A DNA stretch of 23,370 bases from a virus (Duplodnaviria; Heunggongvirae; Uroviricota; Caudoviricetes), in the IMG/VR virus record IMGVR_UViG_2529293239_000006, positions 1 to 23,370 of that record. One strand, written 5' to 3'. The notes under the pieces are model-generated. The model ran no database searches. It was not told where the DNA came from and saw nothing but the letters and a program-made list of their open reading frames with translations. Position 1 is the first letter of the stretch. The number at the start of each line of letters is the position of its first letter. This document shows, piece by piece, positions 17,078 through 17,122 of the stretch. Both the position numbers and the translations under genes were made by a program.

Positions 17078-17093
17078 CTGTATATTTATACAT
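17078..17093 (-). promoter_or_regulatory. candidate LexA (SOS) box upstream of dinB
   Basis: CTGTATATTTATACAT, a CTGT-N8-ACAG-type palindrome with one mismatch in one half-site, 1-13 nt upstream of the candidate dinB starts. TATAAT on the dinB strand at 17107-17102. Confidence 0.5.
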
Positions 17094-17122
17094 GCAAAGA
17101 GATTATACACACAAAAGCAAAA

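What the first reader, a model, noticed from the sequence alone, without database searches (positions are those of the whole stretch)
17078..17107. Candidate SOS operator and -10 element for dinB sit at the junction with the foreign cassette
A near-consensus LexA box (CTGTATATTTATACAT) lies 1-13 nt upstream of the possible dinB starts, with a TATAAT hexamer just upstream on the dinB strand. Only about 46 bp separate dinB from the stop of the AT-rich cassette gene. dinB therefore appears to keep its SOS control despite the rearranged upstream context, but the geometry leaves little room for an RBS if the longer start is used.
Basis: partly seen in the sequence, partly recalled or inferred. Interest (0 to 1): 0.4.

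Follow-up and report, generated by a model that had tools for sequence, protein, structure and literature searches.

The report
Mobile-element junction rebuilding dinB's promoter
The LexA-like palindrome in front of dinB is not the gene's own SOS operator: it belongs to the end of a phage-derived, recombinase-driven element that inserted into codon 5 of dinB, replaced its promoter and start codon, and lies in either orientation in related E. coli.

Summary
CTGTATATTTATACAT lies at 17078-17093, TATAAT (dinB strand) at 17107-17102, and 46 bp separate the longer dinB start from the upstream stop codon.

dinB does not keep its operator. Homology to K-12 starts at an AT dinucleotide (17055-17054) in codon 5. 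Everything upstream is the terminus of a phage-derived element. In E. coli relatives this element carries a large serine recombinase and sits between lafU and dinB, and the native promoter and LexA box stay at its far end.

The element end supplies a -10 hexamer, the LexA-like box, a GGGTG ribosome-binding-like motif, and GTG plus two codons.

As a LexA site the box is marginal. Its heterology index is 13.7, against 10.1 for the native operator and 5.7-7.0 for a conserved box at the recombinase end. One CTG triplet is ATG in every copy, and sister copies score 16-17.6.

The same 5.56-kb element, with no mismatches, is exactly inverted between two strains that have identical flanks. Each end rebuilds dinB.

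I conclude that LexA control of dinB here is weakened or lost, and that the context is a probably undescribed invertible element in dinB.

The parts
17123..17914 (-). Dit-like distal tail protein gene, the last gene of the phage-derived element (the 'AT-rich cassette gene').
   Evidence: Pfam Dit_like 1e-19. phrog_3721 1.8e-131. Annotated 'phage baseplate protein' next to dinB in E. coli APEC O18 and GB089.
18051..19382 (-). Tape-measure gene fragment of the same element, cut by an IS3-family insertion at about 19393. The recombinase half of the element is missing from the window.
   Evidence: Pfam TMP_3. The full-length genes in APEC O18 and GB089 are 2.07-2.09 kb. No recombinase-end box or native dinB operator is in the window.
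17102..17107 (-). Outward-facing TATAAT -10-like hexamer, 46 nt from the crossover. No acceptable -35 element.
   Evidence: Sequence. Invariant in all six aligned copies. Not called by the two-hexamer promoter scan. The opposite end of the element has a TATAAT 45 nt from the crossover.
17078..17093 (.). LexA-like imperfect palindrome: CTGTATATTTATACAT on +, ATGTATAAATATACAG on the dinB strand. A marginal SOS box.
   Evidence: HI 13.7. 14/16 matches to the consensus, 1 hit against 0.03 expected. Sister alleles ATCCACAG and ATCTACAG score HI 17.1-17.6 and 16.0. ATG is never CTG.
17054..17084 (-). Terminal inverted-repeat arm of the element plus the crossover dinucleotide. Inferred recombinase half-site (P-type arm of the attR-type junction). 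It overlaps the TATACAG half of the LexA-like box.
   Evidence: 31-nt arms, 77% complementary, lie exactly at both element termini in APEC O18 (pair I2). Arm identity is 18/23 and 22/29, and random beyond that. This overlap also explains why dinB matches of orientation-B genomes start at window 17084.
17074..17078 (-). GGGTG, a Shine-Dalgarno-like motif 9 nt upstream of GTG 17064. Part of the GGGTG motif shared by both arms.
   Evidence: Sequence. The same motif sits at the same distance at the recombinase end. Its function is inferred.
17062..17064 (-). Element-supplied GTG start codon of the rebuilt dinB (V/M-K-I, replacing M-R-K-I).
   Evidence: Translation compared with K-12. PGAP and other gene callers use it for 350-aa products.
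17054..17055 (.). AT crossover dinucleotide, the only bases shared by the empty site and both element ends. It is palindromic.
   Evidence: Junction comparison of K-12, APEC O18, GB089, SCU-484, NGF1 and TUM9757. The inversion end points are exact.
16012..17053 (-). Native dinB from the last base of codon 5 (K-12 numbering) to the stop codon, intact.
   Evidence: 28 synonymous and 0 non-synonymous codon differences from K-12 over 350 compared codons (stop included). No internal stop.

Best explanation
The interval is the inner edge of a site-specific recombination junction, not a retained host operator.

A phage-derived element inserted at an AT dinucleotide in codon 5 of dinB (window 17055-17054). 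In intact copies the element carries a large serine recombinase, a small serine recombinase, an HTH protein, a tape-measure gene and a Dit-like gene. Integration moved the native dinB promoter, LexA box, ribosome-binding site and first four codons to the far end of the element.

The last 68 nt of the element (17056-17122) rebuild a 5' end for dinB. They supply a TATAAT hexamer, the LexA-like palindrome that would span the predicted transcription start, GGGTG as a ribosome-binding motif, and GTG-AAG-ATT. The outer 29 nt next to the crossover form one arm of the element's terminal inverted repeat, which I take to be the recombinase half-site. That arm overlaps the CAG half of the palindrome.

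In this window IS activity has removed the recombinase half, so the junction is frozen. dinB therefore has to be transcribed from element DNA, either from the TATAAT or by read-through from the co-oriented tail genes.

I predict that LexA control is weakened or lost compared with the native operator, because one half-site reads ATGT instead of CTGT.

Shown: the junction, the displaced native operator, the matrix scores, the inversion, and the intact dinB. Inferred: promoter use, the start codon, the degree of LexA binding, and which recombinase acts at the ends.
For: - Junction. K-12 and the window are alike only from ATTCATGTGG onward. The same Dit-end/dinB junction occurs in 8 complete E. 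coli genomes. APEC O18, GB089 and SCU-484, the three read in full, have lafU, the native dinB promoter and ATGCGTAAAATC|AT| fused to the recombinase end. The site is empty in almost all of the 5417 genomes with a dinB match; 25 carry the element.
- Recombinase. It has the Resolvase, Recombinase and Zn_ribbon_recom domains.
- Terminal inverted repeat. It lies exactly at both ends.
- Inversion. SCU-484 and NGF1 share a 5,558-bp element with 0 mismatches and 1 gap, reversed end to end between the AT dinucleotides. Their flanks match at 3000/3000 and 1100/1100 bases. The long form is also found in both orientations.
- LexA scoring. The window box scores HI 13.7, the native operator 10.1, the recombinase-end box 5.7-7.0, and sister Dit-end alleles 16.0-17.6. 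A single A-to-C change would give 9.4, but no copy has it.
- Structure. There is no terminator or stable hairpin between the Dit gene and dinB.
- dinB is intact, with 0 non-synonymous changes.
- The junction is identical in 8 assemblies of the window's lineage.
Against: - The box is still the second-best LexA-like site in 23 kb. It is the only site with HI at or below 14.5 in the four element loci scanned (about 5.8-11.8 kb each), apart from the two clear operators.
- Its position between the -10 hexamer and the start codon is typical of SOS operators.
- The positions that vary among copies (box positions 11-12 and the two 5' flanking bases) are ones real LexA boxes tolerate, while TGTAT and ACAG are invariant. 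Some selection for LexA binding therefore cannot be excluded.
- In a leave-one-out test the known polB box scores 17.0, so HI 13.7 does not rule out binding.
- No transcription start, LexA binding or expression data exist for this junction.
Confidence: 0.7

Rival explanations
1. The palindrome is a working SOS operator and, together with the TATAAT hexamer, keeps dinB under effective LexA repression and DNA-damage induction.
For: 14/16 matches to the consensus, with 1 hit against 0.03 expected. A chance of about 0.003 for such a site in this spacer. The placement spans the predicted transcription start. The other end of the element carries a clear LexA box next to an equally placed outward TATAAT, which suggests that both ends evolved to offer SOS-controlled promoters. 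TGTAT and ACAG are invariant across copies.
Against: One half-site has ATG in place of CTG in every copy, although one substitution would give HI 9.4. HI 13.7 is weaker than all 18 training boxes as scored in the matrix, and a similar score arises by chance at 14940. The commoner alleles score 16.0-17.6. The CAG half lies inside the terminal inverted repeat and may be constrained by the recombinase instead.
Confidence: 0.25
2. The conserved 68-nt end serves the element rather than dinB. In the excised circle, the Dit-end TATAAT would read across the joined ends into the recombinase gene, so the promoter would act on that gene only after excision. Its effect on dinB in the integrated state would then be a by-product, and the palindrome would have no LexA role.
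For: The spacer is almost invariant (5 variable columns in 68) while the adjacent Dit coding sequence diverges, even in the distant metagenomic copy L028. In a reconstructed attP, the promoter, the box, the joined arms, the strong LexA box and the recombinase ATG are collinear.
Against: No excised or attP junction was found in IMG/VR or in JGI metagenomes. Both ends provide an in-frame GTG-AAR-ATY and GGGTG at the same distance, which fits rebuilding of dinB, although arm symmetry alone would also give this. This reading does not exclude the best explanation.
Confidence: 0.3
3. dinB here has no promoter of its own. It is expressed by read-through from the co-oriented Dit and tape-measure genes or from the adjacent IS, or it is nearly silent. 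The TATAAT and the palindrome would then be incidental AT-rich sequence.
For: No acceptable -35 element, and the promoter scan does not call the site. There is no terminator between the Dit gene and dinB. The tail genes are on the same strand as dinB.
Against: The hexamer and its surroundings are invariant across diverged copies. A matching TATAAT sits at the mirror position at the other end. dinB shows 28 synonymous and 0 non-synonymous differences from K-12 in an IS-ridden genome, which argues against a silent gene.
Confidence: 0.15
4. The terminal repeats are crossover sites of the element's small serine recombinase (resolvase/invertase type). That enzyme, not the large recombinase, flips the element, so the arm at 17054-17084 would be an invertase site rather than an integrase half-site.
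For: A 181-190-aa Resolvase+HTH_7 protein is encoded in every copy. It matches both resolvases (1e-30) and Gin invertase (about 1e-24). The arms GTGAAAATC-AT-GATTTTCAC resemble the A-rich half-sites of invertase sites (from my own recollection of hix/gix; not tested).
Against: The element end points coincide with the insertion end points in an otherwise empty, conserved site. This needs an integrase, and the large serine recombinase abuts one end. No enhancer was looked for.
Confidence: 0.2

Closest known systems
Native E. coli dinB (dinP) promoter and LexA operator (CACTGTATACTTTACCAGTG)
   Same: A LexA-type palindrome a few tens of bases upstream of the dinB start, overlapping or next to the -10 hexamer, upstream of the same coding sequence.
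   Different: It is not homologous: the sequence is element DNA up to 17056. One half-site lacks CTG. HI is 13.7 against 10.1. The start codon is GTG and one residue is lost (MRKII becomes V/M-KII). In relatives the native operator survives at the other end of the element.
Attachment sites of large serine integrases (phiC31, Bxb1, Listeria A118 in comK)
   Same: Short sites of about 50 bp built as imperfect inverted repeats around a 2-bp crossover. Integration is into a coding sequence and a recombinase gene lies next to one end (PMC4111918 and PMC3556126; here).
   Different: The crossover dinucleotide is palindromic (AT), and the element occurs in both orientations in nature. Ghosh et al. 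2003 (cited) showed that the central dinucleotide alone sets orientation, so this is what a palindromic core predicts. Both arms rebuild the target gene's 5' end. Recombinase activity was not tested.
Mobile elements lodged in DNA-repair genes (SpyCIM1 in mutL of Streptococcus pyogenes; the element in mutS of Vibrio splendidus, PMC5296598)
   Same: A site-specific element sits in the 5' part of a gene that governs mutation rate, so the state of the element can change the gene's expression.
   Different: Those elements interrupt the gene and restore it by excision. Here the gene is rebuilt in both orientations and only its promoter and operator are exchanged. The SpyCIM1 comparison is from my own knowledge.
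Invertible promoter switches (fimS, Hin/hix)
   Same: Inversion between short inverted repeats changes which promoter faces a fixed gene.
   Different: The invertible segment is a 5.5-11.5-kb phage remnant bounded by integration junctions, not a dedicated switch of about 0.3-1 kb. A regulatory consequence has not been shown.
LexA-controlled recombinase genes (integron integrase intI; from my own knowledge)
   Same: At the recombinase end, a strong and conserved LexA box abuts the recombinase start codon (HI 5.7-7.0).
   Different: This feature is absent from the window. It concerns a large serine recombinase, not a tyrosine recombinase.

Membership tests
Gammaproteobacterial LexA operator (SOS box) | CTG-N10-CAG dyad | tested here: not met
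   The site reads CTG-N10-CAT (ATG-N10-CAG on the dinB strand) in the window and in all six aligned copies.
Gammaproteobacterial LexA operator (SOS box) | Matrix score or heterology index within the range of proven boxes | tested here: inconclusive
   HI 13.7. The 18 training boxes score 1.8-12.2, and 2.0-17.0 in a leave-one-out test. A chance site of HI 13.3 lies in the same window.
Gammaproteobacterial LexA operator (SOS box) | Overlaps the promoter or the transcription start of the regulated gene | tested here: inconclusive
   The box lies 8 nt downstream of a consensus TATAAT and 13 nt upstream of GTG 17064. No -35 element was found and no transcription start is mapped.
Gammaproteobacterial LexA operator (SOS box) | Conserved as a LexA-like site at the equivalent position in related sequences | tested here: not met
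   Sister copies score HI 16.0-17.6, although TGTAT and ACAG are invariant.
Gammaproteobacterial LexA operator (SOS box) | Binds LexA, and expression depends on lexA | not testable with these tools
   No binding or expression data were found.
Orthologue of the reference dinB operator | Sequence homology with the K-12 dinB upstream region | tested here: not met
   Homology starts only at 17055. The native operator is found intact at the other end of the element in E. coli relatives and is absent from the window.
Large-serine-recombinase attachment junction (attL/attR type) | An empty target site exists, and the junctions share only a 2-bp crossover with it | tested here: met
   K-12 has ...AAAATC-AT-TCATG.... 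The element ends read ...GAAGATT-AT and AT-GATTTTC.... Only AT is shared.
Large-serine-recombinase attachment junction (attL/attR type) | The reconstructed attP is an imperfect inverted repeat of about 50 bp | tested here: met
   Arm identity is 18/23 and 22/29, and random beyond 29 nt.
Large-serine-recombinase attachment junction (attL/attR type) | A large serine recombinase (Resolvase + Recombinase + zinc ribbon) is encoded next to one end | tested here: met
   Met in APEC O18, GB089, SCU-484, NGF1 and E04. The gene is absent from the window itself.
Large-serine-recombinase attachment junction (attL/attR type) | The recombinase catalyses recombination at these sites | not testable with these tools
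   Only comparative evidence exists: an exact inversion of an identical element between identical flanks.

The most novel reading that the evidence does not exclude
A phage-derived serine-recombinase element sits in codon 5 of dinB and flips end to end at a palindromic AT crossover. Either end rebuilds DinB, but under a different operator: a strong LexA box at the recombinase end, and a weak or degenerate one at the tail-gene end. The native SOS promoter is alternately coupled to, or uncoupled from, the recombinase gene. This would be a recombinase-driven, heritable switch in how tightly an error-prone polymerase is held under SOS control. In the IS-ridden lineage of this window it would be frozen in the weakly controlled state.
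Probability: 0.3. Interest if true: 0.75.

Novelty: new variant of a known kind. Interest (0 to 1): 0.55.

Why it matters
DinB (Pol IV) contributes to stress-induced mutagenesis, and its level is normally set by LexA. Here a mobile element has replaced dinB's promoter and operator. In an entire IS-rich lineage the gene depends on foreign DNA whose LexA site is at best weak. That predicts altered basal or induced Pol IV levels, which can be tested directly.

More broadly, the element shows what a palindromic crossover dinucleotide predicts for a serine recombinase: insertion or inversion in both orientations. Both of its ends have evolved to keep the target gene alive. I found no description of it in the searched literature.

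Tried and rejected
- RNA structure or terminator in the spacer: rejected. MFE -12.1 kcal/mol, z -0.49, and no terminator-like site on the dinB strand.
- Standard two-hexamer sigma-70 promoter: not found at the TATAAT. An extended -10 was rejected by inspection, because GT rather than TG lies at -15/-14.
- An intact phage carrying this recombinase or attP: none. The best phage hits are YbcK-like recombinases at 34% identity. The Dit/tape-measure DNA matches only short stretches of Felixounavirus genomes. The arm pattern has no hit in IMG/VR.
- Close relatives of the recombinase in species-representative genomes: only distant Clostridia hits at 22-31% identity.
- An attP or excised-circle junction in metagenomes: none among the 7 arm matches, all of which are integrated junctions.
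- Additional LexA-like sites inside the element that could indicate chance richness: none at HI 14.5 or below.
- Literature on an element in dinB, on the lafU-dinB interval, or on SOS control of dinB in Shigella: nothing relevant.
- Assigning the small recombinase to resolvases or invertases: undecided. The large recombinase has no solved relative by sequence.
- The original Lewis heterology matrix could not be retrieved. I rebuilt one from 18 boxes in Table 4 of PMC3009722, so HI values here are not comparable digit for digit with published ones.

Full report
**1. What is in the sequence**

On the + strand, CTGTATATTTATACAT occupies 17078-17093. On the dinB (-) strand it reads ATGTATAAATATACAG. 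It is preceded by TATAAT at 17107-17102, with 8 nt between them. It is followed by in-frame GTG codons at 17076 and 17064. The ORF upstream (17123-17914, -) ends at 17125-17123, which leaves 46 bp before the longer start.

The ORF at 16012-17076 is dinB, followed by yafP. From GTG 17064 onward its product is identical to K-12 DinB from Lys3. There are 28 synonymous and 0 non-synonymous codon differences.

**2. Is it a LexA box?**

I built a symmetrised count matrix from the 18 E. coli boxes listed in Table 4 of PMC3009722. I scored sites with the Berg-von Hippel/Lewis heterology index, where lower is better.

| Site | HI |
|---|---|
| Window 20-mer GCATGTATAAATATACAGGG | 13.7 |
| 18 training boxes | 1.8-12.2 |
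| 18 training boxes, leave-one-out | 2.0-17.0 |
| Native K-12 dinB box | 10.1 |

Of the 13.7 units, 4.3 come from A in place of the C of CTG. Most of the rest comes from the four outer flanking bases. The AT-rich centre matches the consensus except at one position, which adds 1.0.

The site is the second best in the window. A comparable site (HI 13.3) lies inside an IS66-family remnant at 14940 and is presumably chance. Measured differently, the 16-mer consensus with up to 3 mismatches hits only here, against 0.03 expected. An equal or better site in a 47-position spacer of this AT content has a chance of about 0.003.

On its own, the site is therefore a marginal candidate that is clearly not random.

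**3. It is not the reference operator**

K-12 reads ...CACTGTATACTTTACCAGTGTTGAGAGGTGAGCA ATG CGT AAA ATC ATT CAT GTG G.... The window reads ...GCATGTATAAATATACAGGGTGTATAAGAAA GTG AAG ATT ATT CAT GTG G.... Identity begins at the AT of codon 5 (17055-17054), and everything upstream is unrelated.

The upstream DNA is the end of a phage-derived element:
- The adjacent gene is a Dit-like distal tail protein.
- The next gene is a tape-measure fragment cut by an IS.

**4. The element in E. coli relatives**

Of 5,426 complete E. coli genomes, 25 carry this Dit-end sequence. Nearly all the others have the empty K-12-type site.

In APEC O18 and GB089 an element of about 11.5 kb lies between lafU and dinB. 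In order, it contains:
- a 514-aa recombinase with Resolvase, Recombinase and zinc-ribbon domains, that is, a large serine recombinase;
- a small Resolvase+HTH_7 recombinase;
- an HTH protein (annotated in GB089);
- small ORFs;
- the tape-measure gene;
- the Dit gene, next to dinB

.

At the lafU side, the native dinB promoter, LexA box, ribosome-binding site and ATGCGTAAAATC are joined through AT to the recombinase end. The empty site and the two ends share only the AT dinucleotide.

The two termini form a 31-nt inverted repeat that includes AT (pair I2). Arm identity is 18/23 and 22/29, and falls to random beyond 29 nt.

A 2-bp crossover within an imperfect inverted repeat of about 50 bp is the anatomy of serine-integrase att sites (PMC4111918 and PMC3556126). 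In window coordinates the arm is 17056-17084. It therefore overlaps the TATACAG half of the LexA-like box.

**5. The element lies in both orientations**

In NGF1, NC101 and 15 other genomes, the Dit end is joined to the native dinB promoter, and the recombinase end faces dinB.

SCU-484 and NGF1 carry the same 5,558-bp short form. It has 0 mismatches and one 7-nt gap, and it is reversed exactly between the two AT dinucleotides. Their flanks are identical at 3000/3000 and 1100/1100 bases.

The long form also occurs in both orientations: GB089 and APEC O18 in one, TUM9757 in the other.

Because AT is its own reverse complement, this is the behaviour expected of a serine recombinase whose central dinucleotide carries no polarity. 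Ghosh et al. 2003 (cited) established that orientation depends solely on that dinucleotide.

Whether the large or the small recombinase performs the flip is open.

**6. Both ends rebuild dinB**

- Tail-gene end: TATAAT, 37 nt, then GTG AAG ATT-AT.
- Recombinase end: TATAAT, 36 nt, then GTG AAA ATC-AT.
- In both, GGGTG lies 9 nt before the GTG.

The recombinase end also has a canonical LexA box, CTGTAT(A/G)TT(T/C)ATCCAG, with HI 5.7-7.0. This box:
- is conserved in three sequence variants;
- abuts the recombinase ATG;
- ends 3 nt from the outward TATAAT.

In orientation B, dinB therefore sits behind a strong LexA box. In orientation A, which is the window's state, it sits behind the marginal one, and the native SOS promoter points into the recombinase gene.

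**7. Conservation of the candidate box**

I aligned six copies, including a metagenomic copy (L028). L028's Dit protein is visibly more diverged (roughly 80% identical by eye), and it is joined to a dinB upstream region that is not E. coli's.

In this alignment the 68-nt end has only five variable columns:
- the two bases 5' of the box (GC/AC/AT);
- box positions 11-12 (AT/CC/CT);
- one base in the arm (T/C)

.

The alleles score HI 13.7 (window lineage and APEC O18), 16.0 (L028) and 17.1-17.6 (all others). ATG is never CTG, although that single change would give HI 9.4.

The strong conservation of the whole spacer argues for function, as a promoter, a recombination site, or both. The pattern inside the box is compatible with a weak LexA constraint but does not demonstrate one.

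**8. Other readings checked**

- The spacer has no significant RNA structure and no terminator, so read-through from the co-oriented tail genes is possible.
- The TATAAT has no acceptable -35 element.
- The longer start (GTG 17076) lies inside the GGGTG motif and has no room for a ribosome-binding site.
- ATG 17043, used by some gene callers for a 343-aa product, would remove the conserved Asp8 of Y-family polymerases (from my own knowledge).
- GTG 17064 is therefore the most plausible start.

**9. The window's own state**

The recombinase half of the element and the native dinB promoter are not in the window. The tape-measure gene is cut by an IS. The whole 6,957-bp segment holding dinB lies between two identical inverted IS3 copies that split a capsid gene.

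The exact Dit protein is indexed in 344 blocks of the assembly collection. The largest contigs read were chromosomes of 4.65-4.72 Mb. The junction is identical in all eight assemblies examined.

I infer an IS-rich, Shigella-type lineage, but the organism was not identified.

**10. Verdict**

The interpretation needs correcting.

This is a surrogate 5' end supplied by a mobile element at a recombination junction. It carries a marginal LexA-like site, not a retained SOS operator. My estimates are:
- about 0.25 that LexA control remains effective;
- about 0.7 for the composite reading that dinB runs from element DNA with weakened or lost LexA control.

The larger point is an apparently undescribed, orientation-free serine-recombinase element in dinB (literature searches). 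It could act as a switch on Pol IV regulation. That idea is an inference and needs the experiments listed under next steps.

Noticed in passing
window 13372-14681 and 21639-22948: Two IS3-type copies, 1310 nt and 100% complementary, lie in inverted orientation. Each carries the ALIL frameshift pseudoknot (Rfam RF01497). A phage major-capsid gene is split across them (C-terminal part 12740-13348 '-', N-terminal part 21065-21796 '+'). The 6,957-bp segment between them, which contains dinB, has therefore been inverted by IS-IS recombination.
   Followed up: partly
window 1-13348: A contractile-tail prophage module on the - strand: sheath, tape measure, baseplate hub and wedge, tail fibre, tail terminator and neck proteins. 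It is unrelated to the dinB element, and its capsid gene is cut by the IS3 copy.
   Followed up: partly
window 14679-15344 and 19393-20597: An rtcB-family gene remnant (15081-15344) is cut by an IS66-family remnant. An IS3-family element (two ORFs, 19393-20597) truncates the tape-measure gene. The density of IS elements suggests a Shigella-type genome, but the organism was not identified.
   Followed up: no
window 16012-16015: dinB and yafP overlap directly and the yafN-yafO toxin-antitoxin pair is absent, as in E. coli GB089 and E04. APEC O18, NGF1 and K-12 have yafNO.
   Followed up: no
window 17109-17103, 17092-17086, 17075-17069 (- strand): Three direct TGTATAA repeats lie at exact 17-nt phasing across the -10 hexamer, the box and the arm. 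The third is TGCATAA in sister copies. This may be chance in AT-rich DNA or a binding array for an element protein.
   Followed up: no
L005 37395-37514; L006 8534-8653; L007 14478-14597: In orientation A, the native dinB operator and the element's own strong LexA box lie exactly 100 bp apart, both upstream of the large recombinase gene. That gene is thus doubly placed under SOS control and behind the captured dinB promoter.
   Followed up: partly
L028 (SKEK01013077.1) 860-1070: A diverged copy of the element's Dit end is joined in orientation B to a dinB upstream region unlike E. coli's. That region has its own strong LexA box, TACTGTATACTTAAACAGTG (HI 5.6). The element therefore targets dinB in at least one other host, which was not identified.
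   Followed up: partly
L023 (E. coli E04) 3541-5342; L022 (TUM9757) 6450-7619: Copies of the element have themselves been hit by IS elements: IS100 just downstream of the recombinase gene in E04, and ISEc52 in the tape-measure gene in TUM9757. Decay of the element is therefore common.
   Followed up: no
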